Below, in pieces: positions 31,113 to 55,582 of a stretch of DNA of 58,337 bases. The DNA is from Bacillota bacterium (GTDB taxonomy: Bacteria; Bacillota; SHA-98; UBA4971). The translations under genes and the position numbers were made by a program. Under the pieces are notes generated by a model, which ran no database searches, had not been told where the DNA came from, and was given only the letters and a program-made list of their open reading frames with translations. Each line of letters begins with the position of its first letter. Within the stretch, counting starts at the first letter, position 1. The stretch spans positions 1-58,337 of the forward strand of contig JAPXLY010000002.1 in the NCBI GenBank assembly GCA_033809295.1, read 5' to 3'.

Positions 31113-32219
31113 CTACCTGCCTTCAAGCATTTCTCTAAACGCTTCTATCCGTGTCAGGGCCTGGCCTGTCTTTCCCACTCCATATTGACCTTCAAGGAGA
31201 AGAGCAGGGAGCCTGCCTAGAGTTTTAAGGCCGTGTTTTATCTCTATGAAATCGTAGTATGCCTGGTCACAGAATTTCGGAGCGAAGTATATGAGTCCTT
31301 CGGCACCGTGATCTGATGCAAGCTCATAGACGCGTTCGATCCGCTCTCTTCCTTGAAACATTCGTGGACAGGGTGTTTTACCGAGGTAGGCTTCAGCCAA
31401 TGCATAGAAGGGCCGAGATGTGATCTTGCTGTCTACAACGAAGTCGTACGTCCTTGAGGGGAGGCATGAATCAATAAAGACTACATCTAACCCGGCGTTT
31501 TCGATACAGTCTATCAGTGATAAATCCAGCAAACAGGTTCCGCTGACTCCCACAGGAATCCTGCCTTTCTCGCGGCTGAGGGGAGTGGATTCAGATACTG
31601 TCTGACTTATCATCTCCTCGATTTTCCCAATGAGAGTACAAAACATTCCGGGCTCAAAATCCTGCGTGAAGCAGGGCATGGCTTCAGGGGAATCTTCGGC
31701 GGACCCAAAGCCGGCCAGGATCTGATTGACGCCTATGGCAACTTCAATCCCTCTGACAGCCGAAAGCTGTCTTCGGGACACTAAATCAAAGACATTAGAA
31801 AGCTCCGTGCGGATTTGGTTCATGCAGTTGATAGCGAGCACGAGTTTCTGGGAAAACTCACGGCAGTCGTGAATCTCTCTGTGGAGAAGCCGGGAGGCGA
31901 GGTTTTTCAATTCCTCTGCGTAAAACAAGATTGCATTCGGGTCACGTGTACGTGGAACATCCACAAAATAGACGGTGCGAGCCAGATTCCAGTATCTCAG
32001 CACGTCATAGGCCCTGCGCATTGCATCACAGGACTCAGCGATTGCAACTACGTCGTTATCTTTGTATTGCCGGACAAATGCCCTGGCATACGCGCAAAAA
32101 TCCCGGGGCAGGTACCCCTCCATCGATGGGAGCGGTCCTTCGAATACGACTCTTGCAGCAGGTATCCCGGCTGCCAGAGGTATTTCATATGGTATGTAAC
32201 TGCATGCCAAGTGGACCAC
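31113..32219 (-). CDS. 2-hydroxyacyl-CoA dehydratase family protein (second subunit)
   Basis: ACSYIPYEIPLAAGI start, DFCAYARAF, ESCDAMRR and PKFCDQAYYD segments typical of the family. GTG start with GGCGGAGGTG upstream. Confidence 0.75.
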   Translation of the reverse strand: MVHLACSYIPYEIPLAAGIPAARVVFEGPLPSMEGYLPRDFCAYARAFVRQYKDNDVVAIAESCDAMRRAYDVLRYWNLARTVYFVDVPRTRDPNAILFYAEELKNLASRLLHREIHDCREFSQKLVLAINCMNQIRTELSNVFDLVSRRQLSAVRGIEVAIGVNQILAGFGSAEDSPEAMPCFTQDFEPGMFCTLIGKIEEMISQTVSESTPLSREKGRIPVGVSGTCLLDLSLIDCIENAGLDVVFIDSCLPSRTYDFVVDSKITSRPFYALAEAYLGKTPCPRMFQGRERIERVYELASDHGAEGLIYFAPKFCDQAYYDFIEIKHGLKTLGRLPALLLEGQYGVGKTGQALTRIEAFREMLEGR

Positions 32220-39169: not shown

Positions 39170-39592
39170 GTGAAGATCGCTGTTGTGGACGGACAAGGCG
39201 GCGGGATTGGCAAGAGCATCATTGAGAAACTGAGAAAGGAACTCAGCGCCGAACAAGCCGCGAAGGTGACAATAATAGCCCTTGGCACAAATGCACTGGC
39301 AACAGGCTCAATGCTTAAGGCAGGAGCGGATGAAGGAGCTACAGGCGAGAACGCCATTGTAGTGACAGTTGAAACTGTAGACGTTATCCTTGGACCTCTG
39401 GGGATAGTGCTTGCAAACTCTATACTCGGTGAGCTGACTCCTAAAATGGCAAGCGCCATAGCCTCATGTAAAGCACATAAGGTCCTGATTCCCATGACTC
39501 GTTGCGGGGTCGAGATCGTAGGCGCCAGGATAGAGCCATTGCCTCGCCAGATTGATGCCTTGGTAGAGAAGGCCATTGAGCTCCTGGATTGA
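39170..39592 (+). CDS. DUF3842-family protein
   Basis: MKIAVVDGQGGGIGKSIIEKLRKEL start and ~140-aa size are as in DUF3842 proteins of Clostridia. GTG start 6 nt after AGGAGG. Confidence 0.7.
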   Translation: MKIAVVDGQGGGIGKSIIEKLRKELSAEQAAKVTIIALGTNALATGSMLKAGADEGATGENAIVVTVETVDVILGPLGIVLANSILGELTPKMASAIASCKAHKVLIPMTRCGVEIVGARIEPLPRQIDALVEKAIELLD

Positions 39593-39683
39593 ATGGGAGC
39601 AACCGCCACCCTGTGAATAGCGGCGGATAATGGTGAATAGCTAAGCATAAACCGCTGGATAAATAGTGTATGACCAAGAAGGT

Positions 39684-39731
39684 CTGCGTTCTTTGTCAGT
39701 AGACGAAGATAGTACGCAGGCTTTTTCTTTG
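39684..39731 (+). terminator. stem-loop with U tract after the DUF3842 gene
   Basis: CTGCGTTCTTTGTC-agta-GACGAAGAtagtACGCAG followed by GCTTTTTCTTTG. Confidence 0.6.
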
Positions 39732-39951
39732 TCCCAAGGCATTCACTGCAAGGAGGGGCCGGTAGCCGGAAGGGCCGCGGGCAAGAGAGAGCTGAAGGCC
39801 GGAAAGGGCTGTCGGTAAAAAGGAGCTGCCGACAAGAGGGAGTCGCAGGCAAGAAAAAGCTGTCGGCTGGAAGAGGTTGTGACACGGTTTTCCCAGGCAG
39901 GGCATAAGAAACATTCGTGCGAAAGCATTCATATGGAAAGGGGTATCGACT

Positions 39952-40500
39952 ATGAGGGACGGCAATATTAGGAATCTGATTTTAGGTGGACTGTTCGTGG
40001 CACTGGGAATTATTGTGCCAATTGCATTTCATTCCATTGGCGCAGGCCCTGTATTTCTTCCCATGCATATTCCAGTTTTACTCGCAGGATTCATAACCGG
40101 GCCTGCCATTGGAGGCCTGGTCGGGGCTGTGACCCCTATCTTGAGTTCTCTCTTGACAGGGATGCCTCCCCTTATGCCTCCTAAGGCCCAGATGATGGTG
40201 GCGGAGCTCGCCGTGTACGGCCTGCTTTCCGGATTTGCTTACAGAACCCGGAGGCTTCATGTGATCTTGTCATTGATTATCGCTATGTTCGGTGGACGGA
40301 TTGTTTACGGGATTCTCGCAGCCTACGTTTTGCCGTTATTCGGATTCAGCCCGGTTCCGGTTCTCTATCCGATAACAGCGGGACTCGTTACGAGTGTTCC
40401 GGGAATAGTAATTCAACTGCTGCTTATCCCGTCTGTTGTATGGCTCCTTGAAAAGCAGCTTAAGGCGGACAAACCTGCCCGCAACACCTCGCGTAAGTAG
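39952..40500 (+). CDS. ECF-transporter S component, substrate unknown
   Basis: 182-aa, 5-6 TM protein (LFVALGIIVPIAFHSIGAGPVFLPMHIPVLLAGFITGP). GGAAAGGGG lies 8 nt before the ATG. No EcfA/T genes are nearby. Confidence 0.75.
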   Translation: MRDGNIRNLILGGLFVALGIIVPIAFHSIGAGPVFLPMHIPVLLAGFITGPAIGGLVGAVTPILSSLLTGMPPLMPPKAQMMVAELAVYGLLSGFAYRTRRLHVILSLIIAMFGGRIVYGILAAYVLPLFGFSPVPVLYPITAGLVTSVPGIVIQLLLIPSVVWLLEKQLKADKPARNTSRK

Positions 40501-42911: not shown

Positions 42912-43757
42912 GTGGCAAGTTCCACATTAGGTAAGATTAGAGACGGGAAACTGACATTTAGGGAATCAGAGCAGACGGTCGCTGAATATGTGCTTGCCCA
43001 TCCCAGGGAAGTGGTAAATCTCCCCATTACTGAACTGGCCGAAAGGATCGGGGTCAGTGAAGCCACAATCGTGCGTATGTGCAAGCAAATTGGATTCCGA
43101 GGCTTCCAGGAACTCAAGATCAACCTGGCCCTAGAGATAGTCAGTCCTCTCCAGGCGGTTCATGAAGAGATTAAGGAAGGCGATGACGCGGATACAATCC
43201 TAAAGAAAGTAGTACGCGCTAATGTGCAGGCCCTGGACACTACTACTAATGTGCTGTCCACGAATGAGCTGAGTCGTGCAATACGAGCCCTCTTCGAAGC
43301 GAAGCGGATTTACTTCTACGGAGTAGGCGGTTCAGCCCCTATTGCTATGGATGCTGCTCATAAGTTCACAAAAACGGGAAAGCCTGTGATCGCATATAAT
43401 GACCCGCATATGCAGACAGTAGCTGCAGTTCTCCTGGGCCCCGGCGATGTGGTTGTTGGAATTTCTCATTCAGGTAGCAACCGAGATACTATTGAGGCTT
43501 TGGAAGTGGCAAAATCCCGAGGCGCCACCACAGTCGGGATAACGCATTACGCCAAATCCCCCATTGACAGGGTTCTCGACATAAAACTCGGGGTGTATTC
43601 CAGCGAGACTCTCTACAGAATTGAGAGCGCATCATCTCGCATAGCTCAACTCACCATTATTGACGCGCTATTTGTAGGTGTATGCCTCTGTGAGCCGGAA
43701 AAGGCAATTGACAACATTAGACTGACCAGGGAAGTCATAGTGCCTAAGAGATTCTAG
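42912..43757 (+). CDS. RpiR-family transcriptional regulator (HTH + SIS domain)
   Basis: HTH_6 region ITELAERIGVSEATIVRMCKQIGFRGFQELK and SIS region YFYGVGGSAPIA...GISHSGSN. GTG 42912 lies 6 nt after GGAGG. Confidence 0.9.
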   Translation: MASSTLGKIRDGKLTFRESEQTVAEYVLAHPREVVNLPITELAERIGVSEATIVRMCKQIGFRGFQELKINLALEIVSPLQAVHEEIKEGDDADTILKKVVRANVQALDTTTNVLSTNELSRAIRALFEAKRIYFYGVGGSAPIAMDAAHKFTKTGKPVIAYNDPHMQTVAAVLLGPGDVVVGISHSGSNRDTIEALEVAKSRGATTVGITHYAKSPIDRVLDIKLGVYSSETLYRIESASSRIAQLTIIDALFVGVCLCEPEKAIDNIRLTREVIVPKRF

Positions 43758-43841
43758 GCTTGGGCGTCGCTCAAGCCCGGAAGATCGTGCTTTTTGAGTA
43801 TGAAAACATCATATAACCTGATTATGATTGGAGGCAAGGCA

Positions 43842-45086
43842 ATGGCAGTCATTAGTGAACTCCTACCTGAAACAGTTGGGATGAGCGTTGCTGCGGCAGG
43901 CATTGTTGATGTCCATACACATTTGTATCCCGGTTCCTTCGGAGATCTGCTTCTCCGCGGCATTGATGACCTACTGACCTATCACTACTTAGTTGCGGAA
44001 ACCCTACGCTGTTTGCCCCTTAAGCCCCAGGTCTTCTACGCCATGAGCAAGCAAGAGCAAGCGGATTTGATTTGGAAGACCCTGTTCTTGGAGCGGTCTC
44101 CCATAAGTGAAGCATGCCGCGGTGTTGTGACTACCTTGCAGGAATTCGGGTTGGACACAGCATCGAGAGATCTCAATAGCTATCGCGCTTTCTTCTCAAA
44201 CCTTACGATTCAAGAACACATAGACATAGCATTCAGGAAAGCCAATTTGGAAGCTATTGTTATGACAAACGATCCCTTTGACCCAGAGGAATACAAGTAC
44301 TGGGAAGAGGGCTTCGACGGAGATCCTCGTTTCAAAGCAGCCCTTAGGCTTGACCCTCTACTCAATACATGGGCTTCTGCAGTACCCGTTCTACAGGGCA
44401 AGGGCTATCAGGTAGCGAAAGACGTGTCAGAGAGGACAATCTCTGAAGTCCTGCGTTTTCTTGAGGACTGCAGCAAGAAGATGCCGCCTTTGTATCTGGC
44501 CGTGTCTTTGCCCCCTGACTTCGCCTACCCTGACGCATCGCCCCGAGGGAAGCTCATTGAAGACGCAGTCTTGCCCTTCTGCAGGGAAGCCGGACTTCCT
44601 TTCGCTCTTATGATAGGCGTTAAGAAACTGGCCAACCCTGCACTGGGTGTAGCCGGCGACAGTGTAGGTAAAGCTTCTATCGAGGCAGTGGAGCGCTTGT
44701 GTCTGAGGAACCCTGAGATTCGCTTCCTCGTTTCAATGCTGTCAAGGGAAAATCAACATGAACTGTGCGTAGCAGCGCGAAAGTTCTCCAACCTCAGGCT
44801 TTTCGGATGCTGGTGGTTCTTGAACAATCCAAGCCTCGTAGAGGAGATAACCGCTATGCGCTTAGAGTTGTTGGGCACAAGCTTCATTCCTCAACACTCT
44901 GATGCCAGGGTGCTGGATCAGCTCATCTACAAGTGGAAACACAACAAAGAGACTATTACGAAAGCATTGGTCAGGAAGTATCAGGATCTTATGGACACAG
45001 GATGGGTGTTAGAAGAAGACGAAATCAAGCGAGACGTAGACAGCCTGTTTCGTGGTAATGTCAAGGAGGCGCTGAATCTCGCGTGA
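43842..45086 (+). CDS. uxaC: glucuronate (uronate) isomerase
   Basis: Blocks that align with Thermotoga UxaC as I recall it: VDVHTHL (VDPHNHL), TYHYLVAETLR (TDHYVWELMRR), GCWWFLNNPSLVEE (GAPWWFNDSPFGME), HSDARVLDQL (VTDSRKLLSF). GGAGG lies 7 nt before ATG 43842. Confidence 0.8.
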   Translation: MAVISELLPETVGMSVAAAGIVDVHTHLYPGSFGDLLLRGIDDLLTYHYLVAETLRCLPLKPQVFYAMSKQEQADLIWKTLFLERSPISEACRGVVTTLQEFGLDTASRDLNSYRAFFSNLTIQEHIDIAFRKANLEAIVMTNDPFDPEEYKYWEEGFDGDPRFKAALRLDPLLNTWASAVPVLQGKGYQVAKDVSERTISEVLRFLEDCSKKMPPLYLAVSLPPDFAYPDASPRGKLIEDAVLPFCREAGLPFALMIGVKKLANPALGVAGDSVGKASIEAVERLCLRNPEIRFLVSMLSRENQHELCVAARKFSNLRLFGCWWFLNNPSLVEEITAMRLELLGTSFIPQHSDARVLDQLIYKWKHNKETITKALVRKYQDLMDTGWVLEEDEIKRDVDSLFRGNVKEALNLA

Positions 45087-45095
45087 TTGCCCGAG

Positions 45096-45201
45096 GATGA
45101 CAGGCGGTAGGCAGGCCTTGATGACGGTAGGGATTAATGGCCTAGGCAAGCTCTGATGACGATAGGGATTAAAGGCCAGGCAGGCCTTGCTGACGGAGCT
45201 T
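45096..45201 (+). repeat. intergenic tandem repeat (~34-nt unit GATGACGRTAGGGATTAAWGGCC.AGGCA.GC.CT, 2 full and 2 partial copies)
   Basis: Read directly between uxaC and the SDR gene. The units contain small palindromes (AAGGCC..GGCCTT, GCCTAGGC). Confidence 0.85.
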
Positions 45202-45279
45202 GATGATAACTGCAACCCAAGACAATCGGAAAACAAGGGAAAACTAATGAACTCATACTTAGAAGGAGGTACAAATGAC

Positions 45280-46098
45280 ATGGATGAGCTTTTTGACATT
45301 ACAGGAAAAGTATCAGTGATTACAGGAGGCGCAGGGATTCTGTGCAGCGAAATGGCGAAGGCTCTCGGAAAGAGAGGGTCAAAAATCGCGATTCTGGACC
45401 TTAATGAGGAGCAAGCCAAGGCGGTGGCAAAGGAAATTGGCTCCCAGGGCGGGACTGCCATTGCAGTGAAGACTGATGTCTTAGATAAGAGCTCACTGGA
45501 GAAGGCAAGGGACGTGGTCTTAGAGACATACGGTAAAGTCGATATCCTCATTAACGGGGCAGGGGGAAACAAGAAAGAAGCTACTACCACAGATACGTTT
45601 GAGTTTTTCGATATACCCCCTGAGGCAATCCAGTGGGTTTTCAACCTGAACCTTCTCGGGACTGTCCTTACCACTCAGGCCTTCGGTAAAGTAATGGCAA
45701 AACAAGGAGAAGGCATAGTCATTAACATTTCCTCCATGGCCTCTCTAAGGCCTTTGACCAGGGTAATAGGGTATTCCACAGCCAAGGCTGCCATAAATAA
45801 CTTCACTGCATGGATGGCTGTTCACTTCAACCTGAATTATTCTAAGAATATCCGTGTAAATGCGCTCGCGCCCGGGTTTTTCCTGACGAATCAGAACCGC
45901 TTCCTCCTTACAGATGAAGCTACCGGAGAACCGACCGAGCGAGGCAGACAGATAATTGCTCATACACCTATGGGGCGTTACGGTGTCCCCGAAGATCTTA
46001 TCGGGACACTTATTTGGCTGGTTTCTGACGCCTCCCAATTCGTAAACGGCATAGTGGTGCCGATTGACGGTGGGTTTGCCGCCTACAGCGGTGTTTGA
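45280..46098 (+). CDS. SDR-family oxidoreductase (UxuB/gluconate-5-dehydrogenase-like)
   Basis: TGGAGILC cofactor motif, NGAGGN, S...YSTAKAA catalytic triad context. The ATG at 45280 follows GAAGGAGG. Confidence 0.9.
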   Translation: MDELFDITGKVSVITGGAGILCSEMAKALGKRGSKIAILDLNEEQAKAVAKEIGSQGGTAIAVKTDVLDKSSLEKARDVVLETYGKVDILINGAGGNKKEATTTDTFEFFDIPPEAIQWVFNLNLLGTVLTTQAFGKVMAKQGEGIVINISSMASLRPLTRVIGYSTAKAAINNFTAWMAVHFNLNYSKNIRVNALAPGFFLTNQNRFLLTDEATGEPTERGRQIIAHTPMGRYGVPEDLIGTLIWLVSDASQFVNGIVVPIDGGFAAYSGV

Positions 46099-46153
46099 TC
46101 CCATCGTTCCACCAAGAGCAGGACACACAAATAAACACACTGTGGTGAGAAGC

Positions 46154-47617
46154 ATGAAAGCTATAGGCTTAGAGGTCAGCACCTCATCTGCGAAATCCAT
46201 CATGTTCTGTCCGAAGAAAGGGGTCATAGCCGAGGCTACTCTGCCTTTCCCTAAAGATATAGCCGACGGCCCCACTCAGCATGCAGACGGGATTGTGGCT
46301 ACTGCGATTAGCGTCCTTAAAGAAGTAGTCATCTCTTCCGGAGTTGACGTGAAGTCTATCGGGGCTATCGGCTTGAGCGGGACCTGGCATAGCCTGCTAT
46401 TCTTAGATCGTGACTTACGGCCTTTGGATAGGATTAGGACATGGGCGGACTTAAGCGCTGTACCGACTGTTGCCCCTCTCCGTAAGGACGAGGCAGCCGT
46501 AGGCGAGTTCTACCATAAGACAGGATGCATGGTTCATGCTCTTTACCCTGTATGGAAGTGGATGCATCTGGCTCGGACTCAGCCGGAAATCACCCGGAAG
46601 ACCGCCTACCTTTCATCCCAGCTTGAATACGTCTATCAGGCGTTGACATCTGAGAGATCCATATCCAAGTGTGCAGCTTCAGGCACAGGCTTAATGAACA
46701 TCAACTCCTTGGACTGGGATGACGAAATACTGAAATTCGCAGGGATAGATCGGAGCCAATTAGGTGAACTTGTGGAAGCGTTCCATACAGCGCCTCTCTT
46801 ATCGTCTGTTGCAAGTGAGGTGGGCCTGCCGTCAGGGCTTCCTGTGACGGTGGGTGCATCTGACGGTGCCATGAACCAGGTGGGGATTGGAGGGGTGGCT
46901 GAAGGAATCATGTCCATGTCTGTGGGGACTTCAGGTGCGCTAAGGGTGGCGCATAAGGAACCGAAGATTCCTGATAAGCCGTCTACATGGTGTTACTATC
47001 TCTTTGGCGGCAAGAGGTTAGCAGGCGCTGCCATCAACGGAGCAACAAACTGCGTGGACTGGTATCTTGATTGTGTCAGTGGCAGAGAAACCGGTCATCG
47101 TGATTACCGGGGGTTCACAGAAGGAGCGTCCGGGGTTTGCCCGGAGGAAGCCCCCTATTTTCTACCGTTTCTTTTCGGTGAAAGGTGTCCCGGCTGGCAC
47201 GAAGAAAAGACAGGCAGCTTCTGTAAGCTAAAAGGGTCACACAGCGAGTTTGATCTTTACTACTCCATCCTTGAGGGAGTCCTTTTTAATATGTATCAGT
47301 GTTATCTGATTCTTGTTGAAATCGGCGGCACGCCTCATGATGTCCTAATGTCAGGGGGCATACTGAATTCCCCGCTATGGTCGCAGATGGCAGCAGATAT
47401 TTTCCAACGCGAGCTTCTGGCTACAGGTGCAGCAAATGACTCAACGGTGGGCGCAGCGCTTGTAGCATTGGAGTCTTGTGGCGGCATTGATTCAGTTCGG
47501 GACTATCAGCCCGATGTTACCATGGTGTTTACGCCGCGAGACGATGAGACGCGGATCTATGAAAGGAGATTCAGAACCTATCTGGACCTATACGCTGAGC
47601 CGAGGCAGACTTCATAG
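46154..47617 (+). CDS. FGGY-family carbohydrate kinase (gluconokinase-like)
   Basis: GLSGTWHSLL, VGASDGAMNQVG and SGGILNSPLWSQMAADIF motifs of FGGY kinases. ~487 aa, like Bacillus GntK. Confidence 0.85.
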   Translation: MKAIGLEVSTSSAKSIMFCPKKGVIAEATLPFPKDIADGPTQHADGIVATAISVLKEVVISSGVDVKSIGAIGLSGTWHSLLFLDRDLRPLDRIRTWADLSAVPTVAPLRKDEAAVGEFYHKTGCMVHALYPVWKWMHLARTQPEITRKTAYLSSQLEYVYQALTSERSISKCAASGTGLMNINSLDWDDEILKFAGIDRSQLGELVEAFHTAPLLSSVASEVGLPSGLPVTVGASDGAMNQVGIGGVAEGIMSMSVGTSGALRVAHKEPKIPDKPSTWCYYLFGGKRLAGAAINGATNCVDWYLDCVSGRETGHRDYRGFTEGASGVCPEEAPYFLPFLFGERCPGWHEEKTGSFCKLKGSHSEFDLYYSILEGVLFNMYQCYLILVEIGGTPHDVLMSGGILNSPLWSQMAADIFQRELLATGAANDSTVGAALVALESCGGIDSVRDYQPDVTMVFTPRDDETRIYERRFRTYLDLYAEPRQTS

Positions 47618-47691
47618 ATGAAACAAGCGTCCCGGTTCACGACGGTCCAAGGTCTTTGGTAATTTGTGTTTTATGGAGGCTGGGGTCAATG

Positions 47692-48966
47692 AAGGAAGTG
47701 AGAATAGTAGGAGAAGACATAACGCGCAAGGAGATAGAGGAGGCTCTTACCACATGGCTTGAAAGTTTCGGGCACATACCCGGAAAAGTGCTGCTTCTAC
47801 CACCTGACTATACTCGCAGTCTTTCTCAGGCAGGACTCATCACAGAGATACTGTATGAGAAGCTCTCTCCCGATACTCAGGTGGACATAATGCCTGCCTT
47901 AGGAACTCATGTCCCGGTATCAGACGAAGAGAGGCTTAAGATGTTCAGTCCGGACATCCCGAAGGAGCGGTTCATCGTCCACAACTGGCGTGACGATGTG
48001 GAGGAAATCGGCACGATTCCTGATTCATATGTAAGGGAAATCTCACAAGGCCTCGTTGACTTTTCCATTTCCGTCCAGGTTAACAAGAGGCTTTTTGACA
48101 GGAGTTATGACTTGATCATCTCCATTGGCCAGGTAGTTCCCCATGAAGTAGTCGGTATGGCGAATTACACTAAGAATATCCTCGTAGGTTGCGGGGGTAA
48201 AGAAATAATCGATAAGTCCCATTTCCTCGGTGCCGTATATGGCTTGGAGAATCTTATGGGCAAGGATCATTCCCCTGTGCGCAAGGCTTTTGATTACGCT
48301 GAGGCAAACTTCCTTCAAGACATCCCGCTTCAGTATATCCTTACAGTCACCACAACAGATGATGAGGAAACGAAGGTTCGCGGGCTTTGGGCAGGCAGGC
48401 GCCGGGAGTCTTTTGAGGAGGCTGTGGTCCTCAGTCAGGAACTCAATTTCACCTTGCTGGATGAGCCCCTTGAGACAGTGGTCGTTTACCTTGATCCTGA
48501 GCACTATAAGAGCACGTGGTTGGGAAACAAGGCAGTGTACCGCACAAGGATGGCAATTGCCGATGACGGAGAGCTTATCATTATAGCGCCCGGTGTCAAG
48601 CAGTTCGGTGAGGACAAGGCTATTGACGCCTTGATACGAAAATATGGTTACTCGGGCACCCCGCGTATTCTCGAGCTGACAAATAAGGAAGACGATCTGA
48701 AGGATAACCTTTCTGCAGCCGCTCACCTTATCCACGGCTCTTCTGAGGGAAGATTCCGAATAACCTACGCCCCGGGACATCTCACCCGTGAGGAGATTGA
48801 AAGAGTAAACTTCGAGTACATGTCCTTATCGCAAGCGGTGAAGCTGTATGAACCTGATACGCTGCGTGAGGGATATAACACTGTGGACGGCAAGGAAGTC
48901 TTTTTCATCGGTAATCCGGGTAAAGGCCTTTGGGCATTAAGGAGCAGATTCTCTAACGAGGGCTAG
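47692..48966 (+). CDS. LarA-like (DUF2088, nickel-pincer-nucleotide dependent) 2-hydroxyacid racemase/epimerase family protein
   Basis: LarA-type positions seem present: PPDYTRS (D-x-T-R), ALGTH, VVPHEVVG...YTK, KSH. ~424 aa. GGAGG lies 9 nt before ATG 47692. Confidence 0.7.
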   Translation, partial: KEVRIVGEDITRKEIEEALTTWLESFGHIPGKVLLLPPDYTRSLSQAGLITEILYEKLSPDTQVDIMPALGTHVPVSDEERLKMFSPDIPKERFIVHNWRDDVEEIGTIPDSYVREISQGLVDFSISVQVNKRLFDRSYDLIISIGQVVPHEVVGMANYTKNILVGCGGKEIIDKSHFLGAVYGLENLMGKDHSPVRKAFDYAEANFLQDIPLQYILTVTTTDDEETKVRGLWAGRRRESFEEAVVLSQELNFTLLDEPLETVVVYLDPEHYKSTWLGNKAVYRTRMAIADDGELIIIAPGVKQFGEDKAIDALIRKYGYSGTPRILELTNKEDDLKDNLSAAAHLIHGSSEGRFRITYAPGHLTREEIERVNFEYMSLSQAVKLYEPDTLREGYNTVDGKEVFFIGNPGKGLWALRSRFSNEG

Positions 48967-48980
48967 GCAGGTGAAGGCGT

Positions 48981-50429
48981 GTGAAATCAGATATCGGCTT
49001 AATAGGGTTGGGCGTAATGGGACAAAACCTTGTCCTGAATATGGCAAATCATGGTTACTCCGTCTCGGTCTTTAATCGTACTTTGCGTGTGGTAGATGAG
49101 TTTATTGCTGGTAAAGCCGAAGGCTACGAGACTATCCGGGGCACACACTCGATTTCGGAGCTTGTTGAATCACTGGCAAAACCACGGCGGATAATGCTCA
49201 TGGTGAAAGCCGGCCGGGCTGTGGACGCAGTGATTGAGCAGCTCATCCCATATTTGAGTCCCGGCGATATAATCATTGACTGCGGGAACTCCTATTTCAA
49301 GGATACCATCAGACGCAGCAAGGCCTTGGAGGAAGAGGGATTCTTGTACTTAGGCGTCGGGGTTTCCGGTGGAGAGGAAGGCGCTCTGAAAGGGCCGAGT
49401 ATTATGCCGGGAGGCTCAAAGGCTGCATGGAAACATGTAGAAAGGATTTTTACTGACATAGCCGCCAGGGCCGGTTCAGGTGAACCATGTTGTAGATATC
49501 TTGGGCCTGATGGGGCAGGCCACTTCGTCAAGATGGTGCATAATGGCATTGAATATGCTGATATGGAGCTTATTGCCGAAGCCTACGCCATCATGAGGAA
49601 TCTATTTGGCATGAGCGCGGAAGAGATGGAAGCTACCTTTGCCGACTGGAGCGAAGGGGAGCTCAGTTCATACCTTATTGAGATTACCCGGGATATTCTC
49701 GGTAAAAAGGACAAGGACACAGGACTGCCGATAGTAGATGTGATTAAAGATGCAGCCGGACAAAAGGGCACAGGTAAGTGGACGTCCCAAGAAGCGTTGG
49801 ATTTGGGCGTTCCTGCTCCAACCCTGGTCCATGCCGTGTTTGCACGTTGTATGTCTGCGCTGAAAGACGAGCGGGTATCTGCATCTGCTATGCTCAAAGG
49901 GCCGGCAAAGGCCGAATTCGCACATGACCGGGCTCTTGGCGTATCTCACTTGAGAGCTGCGCTTTACGCTTCGAAAATCTGCGCGTACGCAGAAGGGTTT
50001 GCCCTCATGAAAGAGGCATCGAAAGAGTACGGATGGGATCTTGATCTAGGCGGAGTTGCTCTCCTGTGGAGAGGCGGATGTATCATCAGGGCTCAGTTTT
50101 TGGAGAGGATAACTGACGCGTTCAAGAATAATCCTAATCTGACTAACTTAATATTGGATCCATATTTTAAGGATGTTATTATTTCTTCACAAAACAGTTG
50201 GCGCCTCGTGGCAGGCTGGGCAATTCAGCATGGAATACCCGTTCCTGCCTTCGCTTCAGCTCTTTCATATTACGATTCCTACCGCGCGCCAAAACTGCCT
50301 GCAAATCTCATACAGGCTCAACGTGATTACTTCGGTGCTCATACATATGAAAGGCTGGATAGGCCGGGGACTTATCATACCGAATGGCTTGAACTCGGGG
50401 ATATTGCGGAGAGCTTGGAGAGCAAATAG
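48981..50429 (+). CDS. gnd: 6-phosphogluconate dehydrogenase, decarboxylating
   Basis: GLIGLGVMGQNL Rossmann start, GVSGGEEGA, HFVKMVHNGIEYADM, AQRDYFGAHTYER. Confidence 0.95.
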   Translation: MKSDIGLIGLGVMGQNLVLNMANHGYSVSVFNRTLRVVDEFIAGKAEGYETIRGTHSISELVESLAKPRRIMLMVKAGRAVDAVIEQLIPYLSPGDIIIDCGNSYFKDTIRRSKALEEEGFLYLGVGVSGGEEGALKGPSIMPGGSKAAWKHVERIFTDIAARAGSGEPCCRYLGPDGAGHFVKMVHNGIEYADMELIAEAYAIMRNLFGMSAEEMEATFADWSEGELSSYLIEITRDILGKKDKDTGLPIVDVIKDAAGQKGTGKWTSQEALDLGVPAPTLVHAVFARCMSALKDERVSASAMLKGPAKAEFAHDRALGVSHLRAALYASKICAYAEGFALMKEASKEYGWDLDLGGVALLWRGGCIIRAQFLERITDAFKNNPNLTNLILDPYFKDVIISSQNSWRLVAGWAIQHGIPVPAFASALSYYDSYRAPKLPANLIQAQRDYFGAHTYERLDRPGTYHTEWLELGDIAESLESK

Positions 50430-50548
50430 GGACGGCGTTGATGCGGTAACGGTGATTGGGTGAAGGTCCGGGATGTGGCTGAACGCATTCATGAGTTAAT
50501 TGGAGACAGGCAAAGCAAAGAAATGAGACGGATGACGGAAAGGAAGAG

Positions 50549-52048
50549 ATGATATTGAACATAGGATGCGCGTATCCAAATTCTCTTCACGAGAAAGACG
50601 GGTCAGTCCTTTTCCTCATCAAGGGGGAACGGGAAAAGAGATTGGTAGCAATAGGCGACGGCTCTGCGGTTTTTAGGGAACTCGAAGGCACTGTCAGTTC
50701 CAATGACGGCCTTAGGATGAAAACCTGTGACTTGTCAACTGCAAACAGCCATGTAATAAGAAAACACTTTCCGCATACGCGCCCGGTCTCGTTGCGGAAG
50801 TTTAAAACCACTTTGGGCCTGGGTGACAGGCTGGGAGTGGCATCACCGGGACACATAGAGTTGATAAAGGGCTATGACGTAGGCCCGGTCCTCGCTCAGC
50901 AGTCAATCAGGGAGCTTACGCTCACAGGAAGGACCTTTGAGGATGTGCTGTCAGATGCGGTTTGGGCAGTATTTCAAGAAGGCTACCGCGGTGGATTCGG
51001 TGCGGACGGGGATCACTTGAAGTCAGAGGAAGAAGTGAAGCTTGCCTTAGATACCGGTTACACCATGATAACCCTGGATTGCTCCGCGTATATCAAGAAC
51101 ACTACAGGTTTATCCAAAGACGATGTAGATCGTATGTATATGGAAATTGACAGAGAGACGCGGGAAAGACTGGAGACGCGGTTCCTATCCGGAGAATTCA
51201 AGCTCGAATCAGGCCTTAAACTGATGTTCAGTCCGGAGACGCTTAGGCTGAACGCTGTAATCTATCAGAAAGCCATAGATTTTGCGATAGATATCTTTTG
51301 CGAAATGATCAAGCCATGTCCAAGAGAATTGGATTTTGAGATGTCGATTGATGAGACAGTGACGCCTACGGATCCCCTGGCTCACTTCTTCGTAGCTCTG
51401 CAGCTTAGGGAGGCAGGTGTAGACTTATACAGCGTCGCTCCGCGTTTTTGCGGTGAATTCCAAAAGGGTATAGATTACATTGGCGATCTTTCGCAGTTCC
51501 GGAGAGAACTCCAGGCGCATCAGGCAATCGCATCACACTTCCGCTACAAGCTGAGTGTCCACTCAGGCAGTGATAAGTTCAGTGTGTTCCCGATTATCGG
51601 CGAAGAAACCCGGGGACATGTCCATGTGAAGACTGCAGGCACAAACTGGCTTGAAGCCGTCAGGGTAATCATCCACAGAGACCCGGGGCTTTATCGGGAG
51701 TTGCATGTGTTTGCCCTGGAGCATCTCTCTGAGGCAAGGCGTTACTATCATGTTACATTGGATACCGGCAGAATTCCAGATGTGGTTTCCCTGAGAGACG
51801 ATGAACTCGACGGATTAATGAACCATGACGATGCCAGACAATTGATTCACATCACCTATGGCTTAATCCTCCAGGAAAAGGATGAGTCAGGAGCATATCG
51901 TTTTCGCGACAGGATCTACAGATGTCTCTATGAGAATGAGACGCTTTATAGTGAGTTCCTCAGGAGGCACATTGGGAATCACCTGAAAGCCCTCGGGTTG
52001 CAAACCGGCGGACAAACCGGCGGTAAACAGGCGGTAAACCGGCTGTAA
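50549..52048 (+). CDS. tagaturonate/fructuronate epimerase (UxaE)-like TIM-barrel protein
   Basis: ~499 aa. Metal-site-like DGDHLK, HSGSDKF, HVKTAGTNWLEA. The assignment comes from size, these motifs and cluster context, and is not verified. Confidence 0.5.
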   Translation: MILNIGCAYPNSLHEKDGSVLFLIKGEREKRLVAIGDGSAVFRELEGTVSSNDGLRMKTCDLSTANSHVIRKHFPHTRPVSLRKFKTTLGLGDRLGVASPGHIELIKGYDVGPVLAQQSIRELTLTGRTFEDVLSDAVWAVFQEGYRGGFGADGDHLKSEEEVKLALDTGYTMITLDCSAYIKNTTGLSKDDVDRMYMEIDRETRERLETRFLSGEFKLESGLKLMFSPETLRLNAVIYQKAIDFAIDIFCEMIKPCPRELDFEMSIDETVTPTDPLAHFFVALQLREAGVDLYSVAPRFCGEFQKGIDYIGDLSQFRRELQAHQAIASHFRYKLSVHSGSDKFSVFPIIGEETRGHVHVKTAGTNWLEAVRVIIHRDPGLYRELHVFALEHLSEARRYYHVTLDTGRIPDVVSLRDDELDGLMNHDDARQLIHITYGLILQEKDESGAYRFRDRIYRCLYENETLYSEFLRRHIGNHLKALGLQTGGQTGGKQAVNRL

Positions 52049-52117: not shown

Positions 52118-52193
52118 GGCCCCGTAGCTCAGTGGATAGAGCAGCGGTTTCCTAAACCGCGTGTCGGACGTTCGATTCGTCTCGGGGCTACCA
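52118..52193 (+). tRNA. tRNA-Arg (anticodon CCT), CCA encoded
   Basis: GGCCCCG TA GCTC AGTGGATA GAGC A GCGGT TTCCTAA ACCGC GTGTC GGACG TTCGATT CGTCT CGGGGCT A CCA. Confidence 0.9.
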
Positions 52194-52490
52194 GTTTTGT
52201 TTTTATCCCAGGACTATGTGTATGTGCAGGCACGTCTGGGTGTTCAGGTATGTTATGATGCTCGGGTTTAATTGGGATGCAATTTGCCCTGATTCTGCGC
52301 CATGCCTCAGGCAGGCTCATGGCCTTCGCCGGACATTCTTTCCGGGAGCAAAGTCAAGCTTCACGGCGAAGTCCAGCAGGTCTTGCCCCGAACTCTTTGT
52401 AATGTTATTATAAGAACGAACGTGGCATAGGCTTTCGGTAAGGAATCCTCGTTGATAAGCAAAGCGAATCGGCGGGGGATGTTAAGAACT

Positions 52491-52961
52491 ATGTTGTATG
52501 AGCAAAACATGAATGATGAAACGTTCATGCACAGAGCCCTTCTGGAAGCGAAGAAGGCGTACCTGAAGGGTGAAGTTCCTGTAGGCGCTGTCCTTACCCT
52601 TGACGGACAGGTGATTGCCAGGGCACACAACCGTAGAGAGGAATTGCAGGATCCCACTGCTCACGCAGAGATGCTGGCAATAAGAGAGGCTTCAGCCAAA
52701 CTGCGTTCATGGCGTCTTGTAGGCGCAACTCTCTATGTGACATTGGAACCGTGTTCTATGTGCGCCGGCGCTCTGGTGCTGGCAAGGGTTACGCGTCTGG
52801 TATACGGGGCGCCGGATCCTAAGTCAGGGGCTGTAGGGTCAATCATGAACTTGGCGGAACATGAGGCCTTAAACCATAGGGTGGCTGTAACCGGCGGAAT
52901 CCTCCAGGATGAGTGTTCTGCCATCCTTAAGCAGTTTTTCTCGGAGTTACGTGATGACTGA
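52491..52961 (+). CDS. tadA: tRNA adenosine(34) deaminase
   Basis: HAEMLAIREA and PCSMCAGAL zinc motifs. The start is uncertain among in-frame Mets at 52479, 52491 and 52509. Confidence 0.9.
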   Translation: MLYEQNMNDETFMHRALLEAKKAYLKGEVPVGAVLTLDGQVIARAHNRREELQDPTAHAEMLAIREASAKLRSWRLVGATLYVTLEPCSMCAGALVLARVTRLVYGAPDPKSGAVGSIMNLAEHEALNHRVAVTGGILQDECSAILKQFFSELRDD

Positions 52962-53048
52962 CTTAGCCCGGACCGGTTAGGGCTGTGTCAGGCAAGGGAA
53001 ATCAGGGTCGAAACTGAATAAGTGCTACAGACGAAATGTAGACCAAGC

Positions 53049-53141
53049 GGAGAGATGGCTGAGTGGTCGAAAGCGCTCGCCTCGAAAGCGAGTGGGCGGG
53101 TAGCCCCTGCCCCGTGAGTTCGAATCTCACTCTCTCCGCCA
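53049..53141 (+). tRNA. tRNA-Ser (anticodon CGA), CCA encoded
   Basis: Acceptor GGAGAGA/TCTCTCC, anticodon stem CTCGC/GCGAG with loop CTCGAAA, long variable arm, T loop TTCGAAT. Confidence 0.9.
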
Positions 53142-53156
53142 CCATTGACTTTTTGC

Positions 53157-53250
53157 GGAGAGGTGGCTGAGTTGGTTGAAGGCGCCCGCCTGGAAAGTGG
53201 GTAGGCAGAAGCTCTCTGTCTCGCGGGTTCGAATCCCGCCCTCTCCGCCA
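53157..53250 (+). tRNA. tRNA-Ser (anticodon GGA), CCA encoded
   Basis: Acceptor GGAGAGG/CCTCTCC, anticodon stem CCCGC/GTGGG with loop CTGGAAA, long variable arm, T arm GCGGG-TTCGAAT-CCCGC. Confidence 0.9.
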
Positions 53251-53284
53251 TATTTTTCTAAGTCTGTTTCCTTTGTGAAGGTTT

Positions 53285-53553
53285 GGTCGTGCTAGACGGG
53301 GAGGTAGCGGTGCCCTGAACCCGCAACCCGCTATAGCGGGGTTGAATTCCCGCCCGAGGCCGACCCTTCGTGGGGCCTGGCCCTGTTAAGTGGCGAAGAA
53401 GACTGGGTCCTGCGCAACAGAAGTCTGTGAACCCCGTCAGGACCGGGAGGTAGCAGCGGTAAGCGGAATGTTCTGTGTGCCGCAGGGGCGCCTGGCCGGA
53501 GCAGGCTGGCAGGTTACCGCCTGGGGAGGGCGTTCGAAGGTGGGTGCACGACC
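53285..53553 (+). ncRNA. ffs: signal recognition particle RNA, long Bacillus type with Alu domain
   Basis: GGTCGTGCTAGACGGGGAGGTAGCGGTGCCCTG... at the 5' end, GTCAGGACCGGGAGGTAGCAGCGGTAAG...GTGCCGCAGGG (domain IV) and ...GAAGGTGGGTGCACGACC at the 3' end. These parallel B. subtilis scRNA as I remember it. Confidence 0.9.
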
Positions 53554-53561
53554 ATTACTTG

Positions 53562-53600
53562 ACCGGCCCTGTCCTGGAACTGCAGAGGCCGGTTTTTTCT
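53562..53600 (+). terminator. terminator after the SRP RNA
   Basis: ACCGGCC ... GGCCGGT stem followed by TTTTTT. Confidence 0.7.
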
Positions 53601-53728
53601 TCTCCTGCTTCATGTTTGGGACATAATAGGTTCTTGCTGAACTGAATTTACGAGCCATGGCAGTGTCCCCTGCAGGAATTGAAAGGTGGAGCCAGAAGTC
53701 CATACGTCGGGGTAAGGGGGAACCATAA

Positions 53729-55582
53729 GTGACATATGTCTCGCTGTATCGCCGCTTCAGACCGCAGACATTCACCGAAGTCGTGGGACAGGATCATGTC
53801 ACGCGCACTCTGCGTAATGCTATAGCAGCAGGCCGCACGTCCCATGCATACCTTTTCTGTGGCCCGCGAGGGACAGGCAAGACTACAGTCGCGAAGGTGC
53901 TGGCAAAGGCCTTGAACTGTGGGGCGGGCCCGACACCTGATCCTTGTGGCCGGTGTGAAGCGTGTATCAGGATTCAAGAAGGCCGCTCCATGGACGTTAT
54001 AGAGATTGACGCTGCGTCCAATCGTGGGATAGACGAAATCCGCGATCTTCGGGAAAAGGTCAAATTCGCTCCTGTGGAAGAGAGATACAAGGTCTACATT
54101 ATTGATGAGGTCCACATGCTGACCCAGGAAGCCTTCAATGCCTTATTGAAGACCTTGGAAGAGCCTCCCCAGCGCGTAGTGTTTATTCTTGCGACAACTG
54201 AACCTCATAGAGTGCTTCCTACGATCCTGTCCAGGTGCCAAAGGTTTGATTTTAGGCGTCTCACTGTGAGCGAACTTTCCGGACAAGTCTTGCGGGTCGC
54301 AGAGGCTGAGGGGATTGAGCTTGACAAAGACGCGGTGAGGCTTATCGCCATCGGGGCGCAGGGTGCTGCCAGGGACGCTCTCGGGCTCCTTGAACAGTGC
54401 GCTGCATATACCGGAGGGAGTATTACTTATGAGCACGCTGTGGCTGCTCTTGGAGTTGCAGGATTCCGCAATGTAGTTGAGTTTTGTGACGCAATGATCC
54501 GAGGGGACTTGGCAGGTGCTCTCACCCTCTTAAGGGAGCTTATTGATTCGGGACATGATCCTGCCATGTTCCTCAGGGACGTGCTTGAGCATTTCAGGAA
54601 CCTGCTGGTTTTGCAGACATGCGGATTTGAGCCGGACTTGATTGATGTTCCTGAAACCTCTGTTGATGATTTGAAGAGGCAGGCTGAGGCCATCCCCGGC
54701 GCGTTAGTCCTTGAGGCAATAGACATCCTAAGTGATGCAGACGCTGAAATGAAATACTCTGCATCACCTCAACTCACGGCAGAGGTAATCACGATTAAGC
54801 TGGTGCATTTGAACCCTTCGCTTGCCGAGGACAGTCAAGCAAGGGCATCGCATAGCAAGTCAACGGCAGGCCCAACAGCAGCAGGCCCAACCGCAGCCGA
54901 TCCAACCGTAGCAGGCCCAACCGCAGGCATCCCGGCTGTGGGTGCCCCATCAACAACCGATCCGGTAGCAAGTGACCCGACAGCAATTGACTTTGCCGCC
55001 GATGGTTCTGCCAGGACCGTGATTCGTGTAAGTCTTGAGCAGATACAGGCCAACTGGAATCGGGTAATAGAAGCATTGAAGCAGGGTATTGAGAAAACCC
55101 TGTATTGTGAAGACGGAATCCCGGTGGAACTTAATAAGGAGAATGAACTAGTAATATCGTTCCATGATGATGTAAGAAAAGAGCTGGCTTCTGAGCGGCG
55201 GCGGAAGAAAAGCATACAGAATGCTCTCGAAAAGGTCTTTGGAGTTAAGTTTGCCATCAGTTTCGTTCTGACTAAGGAGCCAAACAATGTCGAGTTTCAA
55301 TTGGAACCCGGTGATGACTTGCCCAAGGAAGAAGAGACATCCTTGGCAAGTCCTCCTGCAGATACAGAATACTCACAGGAAATCATAGGTGATATCAAAG
55401 ACGAAGGTTTCCAAGAACCGGAGCAGGGTGTCGTCCCAGGAGACAATGGGTCCGGCCCTGAAAGCCATGAGGAAGAATTGGCGGAGAACCTTAGACGGAC
55501 CAGAGAAGCGGTCAGGGAGCATCCTACTGTAAAGACTGCCCTTTCAATGTTTAAGGGTCGGGTGTTCAAGATCGACGTATGA
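53729..55582 (+). CDS. dnaX: DNA polymerase III subunits gamma/tau
   Basis: GPRGTGKTT Walker A, zinc module CGRCEAC, IIDEVHML, SRCQRF. GTG start 7 nt after AAGGGGGA. Low-complexity AGPTA-repeat linker. Confidence 0.95.
   Translation: MTYVSLYRRFRPQTFTEVVGQDHVTRTLRNAIAAGRTSHAYLFCGPRGTGKTTVAKVLAKALNCGAGPTPDPCGRCEACIRIQEGRSMDVIEIDAASNRGIDEIRDLREKVKFAPVEERYKVYIIDEVHMLTQEAFNALLKTLEEPPQRVVFILATTEPHRVLPTILSRCQRFDFRRLTVSELSGQVLRVAEAEGIELDKDAVRLIAIGAQGAARDALGLLEQCAAYTGGSITYEHAVAALGVAGFRNVVEFCDAMIRGDLAGALTLLRELIDSGHDPAMFLRDVLEHFRNLLVLQTCGFEPDLIDVPETSVDDLKRQAEAIPGALVLEAIDILSDADAEMKYSASPQLTAEVITIKLVHLNPSLAEDSQARASHSKSTAGPTAAGPTAADPTVAGPTAGIPAVGAPSTTDPVASDPTAIDFAADGSARTVIRVSLEQIQANWNRVIEALKQGIEKTLYCEDGIPVELNKENELVISFHDDVRKELASERRRKKSIQNALEKVFGVKFAISFVLTKEPNNVEFQLEPGDDLPKEEETSLASPPADTEYSQEIIGDIKDEGFQEPEQGVVPGDNGSGPESHEEELAENLRRTREAVREHPTVKTALSMFKGRVFKIDV

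What the first reader, a model, noticed from the sequence alone, without database searches (positions are those of the whole stretch)
42912..52048. Hexuronate cluster lacking uxuA/kdgK/kdgA but containing LarA-like, FGGY kinase and gnd genes: a possible mannonate-to-gluconate epimerase bypass into the pentose-phosphate pathway
The co-directional genes are rpiR, uxaC (uronate isomerase), an SDR (UxuB-like fructuronate/mannonate oxidoreductase or 5-keto-gluconate reductase), an FGGY kinase (GntK-like), a LarA-like protein, gnd and a UxaE-like epimerase. The classical route is uronate, then fructuronate/tagaturonate, then mannonate/altronate, then KDG, then KDPG. That route needs a dehydratase (UxuA/UxaA), KdgK and KdgA, none of which is in the cluster. 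LarA homologs are nickel-pincer 2-hydroxyacid racemases/epimerases. From memory, a D-gluconate 2-epimerase (gluconate/mannonate) activity has been described within that superfamily. The gene set therefore fits this route: galacturonate/glucuronate to fructuronate (UxaC, UxaE), to mannonate (SDR), to gluconate (LarA-like), to 6-phosphogluconate (FGGY kinase), to ribulose-5-P (Gnd). To my knowledge this is not the textbook pathway. No transporter and no larBCE genes are in the window.
Basis: inference. Interest (0 to 1): 0.6.

Follow-up and report, generated by a model that had tools for sequence, protein, structure and literature searches.

The report
Known uronate-to-pentose bypass; cofactor genes missing
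This seven-gene operon encodes an already proposed shortcut that feeds pectin-derived uronic acids into the pentose-phosphate pathway through a nickel-cofactor epimerase, but this genus, like about half of all carriers of that epimerase, has no genes for making the cofactor.

Summary
Seven co-directional genes encode RpiR, a BH0493-type uronate isomerase, a UxuB-type SDR, an FGGY kinase, a LarA homologue, Gnd and UxaE.

The reading (mannonate to gluconate or 6-phosphogluconate, then Gnd) is well supported but not new:
- The same gene set (gnd-uxaRED-gntEK) was proposed for Thermotoga in 2012.
- GntE activity was shown in 2020.
- This LarA homologue belongs to the still untested LarAH group 18. 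NCBIfam NF052594 already names it "putative hexonate epimerase".
- This scan has met the same module in many other genomes.

The twist concerns the cofactor. larB, larC and larE were not found in this genome or in four 91-94% complete congeners. They were also missing from 27 of 50 other LarAH18-carrying species. Yet every catalytic and cofactor-binding residue is invariant, and dN/dS is about 0.04-0.10.

A NiaX-like ECF S-component lies just upstream. It occurs in 27/27 carriers without lar genes and in only 3/23 carriers with them. Cofactor salvage is a speculative explanation for this.

The order of the kinase and epimerase steps remains open.

The parts
42912..43757 (+). RpiR/MurR-family regulator (HTH_6 + SIS); likely senses a phosphorylated sugar acid of the pathway
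   Evidence: Pfam PF01418 and PF01380. The GTG at 42912 follows a GGAGG. The gene is 91% identical in congeners and leads the same operon there.
43842..45086 (+). BH0493-type uronate isomerase (amidohydrolase superfamily, not the PF02614 UxaC family): galacturonate to tagaturonate, glucuronate to fructuronate
   Evidence: No Pfam or NCBIfam hit. PDB 2Q08/2PNK/2QEE 'BH0493 / uronate isomerase' at E 2e-149 over 401 residues. Present at this position in G002 and G003, absent from it in G005, G006 and G041.
45280..46098 (+). SDR-type fructuronate reductase / D-mannonate oxidoreductase (UxuB/UxaD analogue)
   Evidence: NF006132, 386 bits against a cut-off of 281. An AGGAGG precedes the ATG at 45280. 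A homologue was matched beside LarAH18 in about 30 of 80 loci.
46154..47617 (+). FGGY-family hexonate 6-kinase (gluconate or mannonate kinase; specificity untested)
   Evidence: PF00370 + PF02782. TIGR01314 gntK_FGGY scores 255 bits, far below its cut-off of 648. The best PDB match is 3GBT 'gluconate kinase', E 4e-50. In most other LarAH18 loci a PfkB KDG-kinase-like gene takes this place.
47689..48966 (+). LarA homologue of group 18 (NF052594): putative NPN-dependent hexonate 2-epimerase acting on D-mannonate/D-gluconate or their 6-phosphates
   Evidence: NF052594, 630 bits against a cut-off of 500. PDB 4NAR (T. maritima GntE2) at E 1e-35. D40, R43, H74, H152, K162, H178 and K281 are invariant in all rows covering them of the 81 aligned sequences. 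dN/dS is 0.04-0.10 within the genus.
48981..50429 (+). Decarboxylating 6-phosphogluconate dehydrogenase (Gnd), dedicated to this operon
   Evidence: TIGR00873, 719 bits. It is the only 6PGD match in G000, G003, G005 and G006. G001, which lacks the operon, has none, and no G6PD was found in any of the five. Gnd lies within 10 kb of LarAH18 in most of 80 loci.
50549..52048 (+). UxaE tagaturonate-fructuronate 3-epimerase
   Evidence: PF16257, 646 bits, full length. A tRNA at 52118-52190 ends the unit.
39170..39592 (+). DUF3842 protein, a small Rossmann-like domain with a conserved GQGGGIG motif; tentative association only
   Evidence: PF12953, 177 bits. It lies next to the S-component in 7 of 33 loci. 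The AF2 model has pLDDT 86, but only weak generic nucleotide-binding fold matches were found.
39952..40500 (+). ECF transporter S-component, NiaX-like; its distribution complements larBCE among LarA-homologue carriers; tentative association only
   Evidence: PF12822. JGI names some homologues 'niacin transporter'. Found in 27/27 LarAH18 genomes without lar genes and in 3/23 with them. Lies within 10 kb of LarAH18 in three lineages.

Best explanation
The operon encodes a non-dehydratase 'GntE-type' bypass for hexuronates.

Proposed steps:
1. The BH0493-type isomerase converts D-galacturonate to D-tagaturonate and D-glucuronate to D-fructuronate.
2. UxaE epimerises tagaturonate to fructuronate.
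3. The SDR reduces fructuronate to D-mannonate.
4. The LarA homologue (group 18) inverts C2, and the FGGY kinase phosphorylates C6. Together they yield 6-phosphogluconate.
5. Gnd oxidatively decarboxylates 6-phosphogluconate to ribulose-5-phosphate.
6. RpiR controls the unit, probably by sensing a phosphorylated intermediate.

I commit to epimerase first (mannonate to gluconate, then gluconate kinase) as the more likely order, at about 55:35 over kinase first.

What is shown: gene identities, intact catalytic residues, conservation of the module, its purifying selection, and that Gnd has no other source of substrate in this genus. What is inferred: the substrates of the epimerase and the kinase, and the regulator's effector.

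The epimerase should need the nickel-pincer nucleotide cofactor. The genus has no recognisable genes to make it, so the cofactor's origin is unexplained.
For: -
- T. maritima has the same gene content in one UxaR-regulated operon (gnd-uxaRED-gntEK), which is induced on pectin (PMC3750489).
- G2E activity has been demonstrated for LarAH19 and LarAH20 (PMC7583248) and for LarAH15 (PMC11770544). Group 18 shares their EV / W / A signature.
- LarAH18 is neighboured by Gnd in most of 80 species' loci. A kinase (PfkB or FGGY), a UxuB-type SDR, UxaC or the BH0493-type isomerase, and UxaE recur around it.
- In the genus, UxuA was found in 0/8 genomes and UxaA in 1/8.
- gnd is single-copy and lies inside the operon. 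It is missing from the one congener that lacks the operon. G6PD was found in 0/5.
- dN/dS is 0.04-0.10 for LarAH18, the same as for Gnd.
Against: - No member of LarAH group 18 has been assayed.
- larB, larC and larE were not found in G000 (80% complete) or in G002, G003, G005 and G006 (91-94% complete).
- The FGGY kinase scores far below the gluconokinase cut-off.
- The only in vivo biochemistry of such a bypass, in L. suebicus, found no mannonate-to-gluconate activity. It found a mannonate kinase plus a 6-phosphomannonate 2-epimerase instead (PMC6978723).
- No uronate transporter is in the window.
- The genome is an incomplete MAG.
Confidence: 0.72

Rival explanations
1. Same pathway, opposite order. 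The kinase is a mannonate 6-kinase and LarAH18 is the so far unidentified 6-phosphomannonate 2-epimerase, as measured in Lactobacillus suebicus extracts.
For: - PMC6978723: extracts made no gluconate from mannonate alone. With ATP they made 6-phosphomannonate and then 6-phosphogluconate. The genes were not identified, and the epimerase candidate the authors examined was an aldose-1-epimerase-like homologue of 'TM0042', not a LarA homologue.
- Kinases beside LarAH18 are not orthologues of known gluconokinases. They are a sub-threshold FGGY or a KDG-kinase-like PfkB.
- The assayed GntE enzymes have high Km values for free mannonate, 9-120 mM (PMC7583248, PMC11770544).
- R101, H349 and R355 are invariant basic residues in LarAH18. 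They differ from the T. maritima GntE2 residues aligned with them.
Against: - All three assayed GntE-branch relatives (LarAH15, 19 and 20) epimerise free mannonate.
- The kinase's nearest family and nearest structure are gluconokinases.
- Whether L. suebicus carries a group-18 gene could not be checked here.
- The positions of the basic residues relative to the active site were not modelled.
Confidence: 0.3
2. LarAH18 acts on another 2-hydroxy sugar acid, such as a different hexonate or an aldarate, and its link to Gnd is indirect.
For: - Group 18 is unassayed.
- Desguin et al. suspected that group 19's native substrate is not mannonate (PMC7583248).
- Some loci carry Eda-type aldolase, 2-hydroxyacid dehydrogenase or Fe-ADH genes instead of Gnd.
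Against: - Of the C2-epimer pairs I considered (from general knowledge, not tested here), only mannonate/gluconate or their 6-phosphates lead to Gnd's substrate.
- Gnd is the most constant neighbour.
- Gnd has no other source of substrate in this genus.
- A mannonate-forming SDR sits in the same operon.
Confidence: 0.08
3. Without larBCE the epimerase is an inactive apoprotein in this genus, and the operon is a decaying or incomplete remnant.
For: larB, larC and larE were not found in five genomes of the genus. The reactions assayed for LarA homologues all required NPN (PMC7583248).
Against: - dN/dS is 0.04-0.10, equal to that of Gnd.
- All catalytic and NPN-binding residues are invariant in 27 lar-less carriers.
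- The whole operon is conserved across the species of the genus.
- Lar-less carriers are scattered over the LarAH18 tree, with at least 13 state changes.
Confidence: 0.06

Closest known systems
Thermotoga maritima UxaR-regulated operon aldH-pelB-gnd-uxaRED-gntEK, with GntE2 = LarAH20 (TM0442, PDB 4NAR)
   Same: It has the same enzyme set in one operon: Gnd, UxaE, an SDR reductase, a LarA-family epimerase and an FGGY kinase. The proposed logic is the same, mannonate to gluconate to 6-phosphogluconate to ribulose-5-P. The catalytic and NPN-binding residues are conserved (PMC7583248).
   Different: - The epimerase belongs to sister group 18, not group 20. It matches 4NAR at only E 1e-35 and is unassayed.
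- The regulator is RpiR, not GntR-type UxaR.
- The isomerase is BH0493-type.
- The control search found LarB, LarC and LarE in T. maritima, whereas none was found in this genus.
- T. maritima also keeps kdgAK-uxuBA, whereas no UxuA was found in this genus.
Lactobacillus (Paucilactobacillus) suebicus galacturonate-phosphoketolase hybrid pathway (Valk et al. 2020, PMC6978723)
   Same: The upper isomerase steps (UxaC, UxaE, UxuB) are joined to 6-phosphogluconate dehydrogenase, and UxuA/KdgK/KdgA are not used.
   Different: The order there was measured as kinase first, then 6-phosphomannonate 2-epimerase. The genes for both steps are unidentified. Whether that organism has a LarA homologue could not be tested here.
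LarAH group 18 / NCBIfam NF052594 'nickel-dependent putative hexonate epimerase' (Desguin et al. 2020, PMC7583248)
   Same: The window's protein is a full-length member scoring above the curated cut-off, and it has the group's signature residues.
   Different: Nothing differs in sequence.
BH0493 uronate isomerase of Bacillus halodurans (PDB 2Q08, 3HK5-3HKA)
   Same: The match is E 2e-149 over 401 aligned residues and essentially full length.
   Different: It is a different organism. The neighbourhood of the B. halodurans gene was not examined here.

Membership tests
LarA superfamily (NPN-dependent 2-hydroxyacid racemases/epimerases) | Lar_N domain and overall homology to solved LarA / GntE2 structures | tested here: met
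   PF09861 at E 8e-14. PDB 4NAR at E 1e-35, and 2YJG/5HUQ/6C1W at E 1e-5 to 1e-6.
LarA superfamily (NPN-dependent 2-hydroxyacid racemases/epimerases) | Catalytic Asp, two His and Lys (LarA D72, H108, H174, K298), and NPN-binding Arg, Lys and His (R75, K184, H200) | tested here: met
   D40, H74, H152, K281 and R43, K162, H178 align with the GntE2 residues named in PMC7583248. They are invariant in all rows covering them of the 81 aligned LarAH18 sequences.
LarA superfamily (NPN-dependent 2-hydroxyacid racemases/epimerases) | NPN biosynthesis genes larB, larC and larE in the same genome | tested here: not met
   No match above cut-off in G000 (80% complete) or in G002, G003, G005 and G006 (91-94%). 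The models detect all three in T. maritima and several other control genomes. A NadD control was found in 47/50 comparable MAGs.
LarA superfamily (NPN-dependent 2-hydroxyacid racemases/epimerases) | Nickel/NPN-dependent activity | not testable with these tools
   Needs purified protein loaded with the cofactor.
LarAH group 18 / NF052594 | Score above the curated equivalog cut-off over the full length | tested here: met
   629.6 bits against a cut-off of 500, model positions 3-410 of 411.
LarAH group 18 / NF052594 | Signature shared by groups 18-20: E-V/S after the second catalytic His, and W in helix alpha-11 | tested here: met
   H152-E153-V154 and W277 are invariant across the aligned sequences. 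The signature is described in PMC7583248.
D-gluconate 2-epimerase GntE (function) | Interconversion of D-mannonate and D-gluconate | not testable with these tools
   Shown only for LarAH19, LarAH20 (PMC7583248) and LarAH15 (PMC11770544). Context supports it here.
FGGY gluconokinase GntK (TIGR01314) | Score above the equivalog cut-off | tested here: not met
   255.5 bits against a cut-off of 648.55. It is an FGGY kinase but not a GntK equivalog, so the substrate remains open.
UxaC glucuronate isomerase family (PF02614) | Match to PF02614 / NF002794 | tested here: not met
   No Pfam or NCBIfam hit. The protein belongs instead to the BH0493 uronate isomerase family.
UxaE tagaturonate epimerase (PF16257) | Full-length match above the gathering score | tested here: met
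   646.5 bits, profile positions 1-475 of 475.
Decarboxylating 6-phosphogluconate dehydrogenase (TIGR00873) | Score above the equivalog cut-off | tested here: met
   718.6 bits against a cut-off of 426.7.

The most novel reading that the evidence does not exclude
In this genus and in about half of all species that carry LarAH18, a fully intact and strongly selected nickel-pincer-type epimerase works without any endogenous larB, larC or larE. Either the cofactor, or a nucleoside form of it, is taken up from the community, or the enzyme uses another cofactor. The candidate importer is the NiaX-like ECF S-component that sits upstream of this operon. It often travels with a uridine-kinase-like kinase or DUF3842, and its distribution complements larBCE.
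Probability: 0.4. Interest if true: 0.75.

Novelty: new member of a known kind. Interest (0 to 1): 0.42.

Why it matters
The pathway itself is a redox-neutral way to turn pectin-derived uronates into pentose phosphates. It interests people engineering pectin fermentation. This window adds a clean natural example in which the bypass appears to be the only route: no UxuA was found, and Gnd is dedicated to the operon. The window also points to LarAH18 and its partner kinases as candidates for the two 'missing' L. suebicus enzymes.

The more consequential point is the cofactor. The papers read here describe larBCE without LarA, not the reverse. Here LarA homologues occur without larBCE in many genomes, including one closed genome. 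If confirmed, that would mean either cross-feeding of the nickel-pincer nucleotide in anaerobic communities or a second way to arm this enzyme family.

Tried and rejected
- **MAG incompleteness as the cause of missing larBCE: rejected.** The three genes are all-or-none across the 50 genomes. NadD is found in 47/50. Four congeners are 91-94% complete. A one-contig genome with 10 Lar_N hits has none of the three.
- **Relaxed active site in lar-less carriers: rejected.** The residues are invariant.
- **Loss of the LarB substrate NaAD in lar-less genomes: rejected.** NadD is present in 26/27 of them.
- **Genome size as the confounder for the S-component pattern: not sufficient.** Among genomes of 2.8 Mb or less the counts are 25/25 against 1/13.
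- **Riboswitch upstream of the S-component:** none at gathering scores.
- **Other conserved neighbours of the S-component:** none beyond a uridine-kinase-like kinase and DUF3842. No further LarA genes lie within 5 kb of it.
- **Contexts of three more homologues:** uninformative, except for one NadB-like neighbour.
- **DUF3842 fold search:** only generic Rossmann-like matches.
- **Independent-contrast test of larBCE against the S-component:** only 4 well-supported pairs, all or nearly all in the expected direction, p about 0.125.
- **Could not be done:** the Rodionova 2012 paper is not held. Whether L. suebicus carries LarAH18 could not be checked.


Full report
**What is there.** Between 42.9 and 52.05 kb, seven + strand genes follow each other with gaps of at most about 190 bases (most under 120). 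Most have Shine-Dalgarno-like sequences. A tRNA at 52118-52190 closes the unit.
- The first gene is an RpiR regulator (HTH_6 + SIS).
- The second matches no Pfam or NCBIfam model. It is a close relative of the structurally and enzymatically characterised BH0493 uronate isomerase (E 2e-149).
- The SDR exceeds the cut-off of the D-mannonate oxidoreductase subfamily NF006132.
- The FGGY kinase resembles gluconokinase most, but scores far below the equivalog cut-off (255 against 648 bits). Its best structure match is 3GBT.
- Gnd and UxaE are unambiguous.
- The LarA-like protein scores 630 bits (cut-off 500) against NF052594, 'nickel-dependent putative hexonate epimerase'. Its nearest structure is T. 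maritima GntE2 (4NAR, E 1e-35).

**What is known.** The papers read here state the following.
- Rodionova et al. (2012) proposed, from the T. maritima operon gnd-uxaRED-gntEK, that a GntE epimerase converts mannonate to gluconate, followed by GntK and Gnd.
- Desguin et al. (2020) showed this activity for LarAH20 (T. maritima) and LarAH19 (C. glutamicum). They predicted that the untested group 18 also epimerises a hexonate.
- A third GntE (LarAH15) followed in 2024.
- Valk et al. (2020) showed in L. suebicus that the bypass operates in vivo. There the order is mannonate kinase first, then a 6-phosphomannonate 2-epimerase, and neither gene was identified.

Earlier notes of this scan report the same LarA-gnd-kinase module in many other genomes.

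**Support gained here.**
- In the 80 best loci, Gnd is the most constant neighbour. A kinase is usually present. In most loci it is a KDG-kinase-like PfkB protein, and in a minority it is the FGGY type seen here.
- A UxuB-type SDR, UxaE and either canonical UxaC or the BH0493-type isomerase recur in those loci.
- Within the window's genus the operon is conserved at 75-91% protein identity.
- LarAH18 evolves with dN/dS 0.04-0.10, like Gnd.
- UxuA was found in none of 8 genomes of the genus, and UxaA in one. An Eda-type aldolase was found in five relatives but not in this assembly.
- The operon's gnd is the only 6PGD gene in G000, G003, G005 and G006. G001, the congener without the operon, has no gnd. 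No glucose-6-phosphate dehydrogenase was found in any of the five.

Gnd therefore appears to have no substrate source other than this operon, which is strong contextual evidence that the operon's product is 6-phosphogluconate.

**Order of steps.** This is not resolved.
- For epimerase first: all three assayed GntE-branch relatives (LarAH15, 19 and 20) act on free mannonate, and the kinase's nearest family is gluconokinase.
- For kinase first: the L. suebicus biochemistry; the fact that partner kinases are not orthologues of known gluconokinases; the high Km values of assayed GntEs for mannonate; and invariant basic residues in LarAH18 (R101, H349, R355) that differ from the GntE2 residues aligned with them.

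I favour epimerase first at about 55:35.

**The cofactor problem.**
- LarB, LarC and LarE models found nothing above cut-off in this assembly (80% complete) or in four congeners of 91-94% completeness that carry the operon. The same models detect LarB and LarC in six control genomes and LarE in five, T. maritima among them.
- Among 50 further LarAH18-carrying species the three genes are all-or-none. 20 have all three, 3 have one or two, and 27 have none.
- A NadD control was found in 47 of the 50, including 26 of the 27 lar-less genomes. Incompleteness therefore does not explain the pattern, and the LarB substrate NaAD should be available.
- The lar-less state is scattered over the LarAH18 tree, with at least 13 changes.
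- The seven catalytic and NPN-binding residues are invariant in both groups.
- In the relatives' sample, LarC was found in none of the 7 other g1 genomes or the 9 g2 genomes of the window's family, although every one of them carries a Lar_N protein. A one-contig, 100% complete genome (G039) has ten Lar_N matches and no LarB, LarC or LarE.
- The papers I could read describe the converse (larBCE without LarA). They do not describe this.

**A lead.** About 2.4 kb upstream of rpiR lie a DUF3842 gene (39170-39592) and an ECF S-component gene (39952-40500).
- Orthologues of the S-component occur in 27 of 27 lar-less LarAH18 carriers. One of those matches is weak and contains a stop codon, and another also contains stop codons.
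- They occur in only 3 of 23 carriers with any lar biosynthesis gene (Fisher p 4e-11). Among genomes of 2.8 Mb or less the counts are 25/25 against 1/13.
- The S-component lies within 10 kb of LarAH18 in three lineages: this genus; L057, where it is adjacent; and the Acutalibacteraceae.
- In the 41 relatives it is present in 21 of 23 genomes that have Lar_N but no LarC, in 3 of 12 with LarC, and in 3 of 7 without Lar_N.
- Its recurrent neighbours are a uridine-kinase-like P-loop kinase (about 11 of 33 loci) and DUF3842 (7 of 33). DUF3842 is a small Rossmann-like domain.

Caveats apply.
- JGI labels some homologues 'niacin transporter', and one homologue sits next to a NadB-like gene. The sober reading is therefore a NiaX-type niacin or niacin-riboside importer.
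- The genomes are related to one another, and the strict independent-pair test had only four pairs.
- Salvage of the niacin-derived nickel-pincer cofactor, or of its riboside, by this system is a testable speculation and not a finding.

**Verdict.** The unexplained absence of cofactor biosynthesis, and its complementary transporter, are what deserve follow-up.

Noticed in passing
window 39170-40500: A DUF3842 gene and a NiaX-like ECF S-component gene lie upstream of the operon. The S-component's presence complements larBCE among LarAH18 carriers (27/27 against 3/23).
   Followed up: yes
G039 (one-contig genome of the same phylum); G008-G017 (sister genus): LarA-family (Lar_N) genes occur without LarC in many relatives. 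LarB and LarE were also checked and not found in G008, G018, G019, G036 and G039. G039 is a closed genome with ten Lar_N matches.
   Followed up: partly
L106:12699-13775, L107:11280-12359 and most of L031-L110: In most LarAH18 loci the partner kinase is a PfkB, KDG-kinase-like protein that matches no NCBIfam model above cut-off, rather than the FGGY kinase seen here. This looks like non-orthologous displacement of the hexonate kinase.
   Followed up: partly
L131-L134, L031 (same genus): The BH0493-type isomerase gene is present between rpiR and the SDR gene in G000, and sits directly upstream of the SDR gene in G002 and G003 (no rpiR match was seen there). It is absent from that position in G005, G006 and G041.
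   Followed up: partly
window 4743-11060 (- strand): A MacAB-like ABC exporter, a membrane-fusion protein and two TolC-like OEP genes are present. This implies an outer membrane in a MAG lineage labelled Bacillota.
   Followed up: no
window 22357-22503: An FMN riboswitch (101 bits) lies upstream of a 202-aa ORF at 22793-23401.
   Followed up: no
window 28971-32219 (- strand): Two HGD-D (2-hydroxyglutaryl-CoA dehydratase-like) subunit genes and a BcrAD/BadFG activator ATPase gene are present. An aromatic amino acid ammonia-lyase gene (18928-20445) and a weak histidine-racemase-like gene (20550-21548) lie nearby.
   Followed up: no
window 644-1942 (- strand): A knotted carbamoyltransferase YgeW gene (771 bits).
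   Followed up: no
window 52118-55582: A housekeeping block follows the operon: tRNAs, tadA, SRP RNA (53287-53551) and dnaX.
   Followed up: no
L026, L037, L135 (Limnochordia-like MAGs): A variant cluster reads RpiR, 2-hydroxyacid dehydrogenase, BH0493-type isomerase, Eda-type aldolase, SDR, FGGY and LarAH18, with an Fe-ADH gene 0.1-3.4 kb further on. No Gnd was matched in these loci, which hints at a second outlet for the epimerase product.
   Followed up: no
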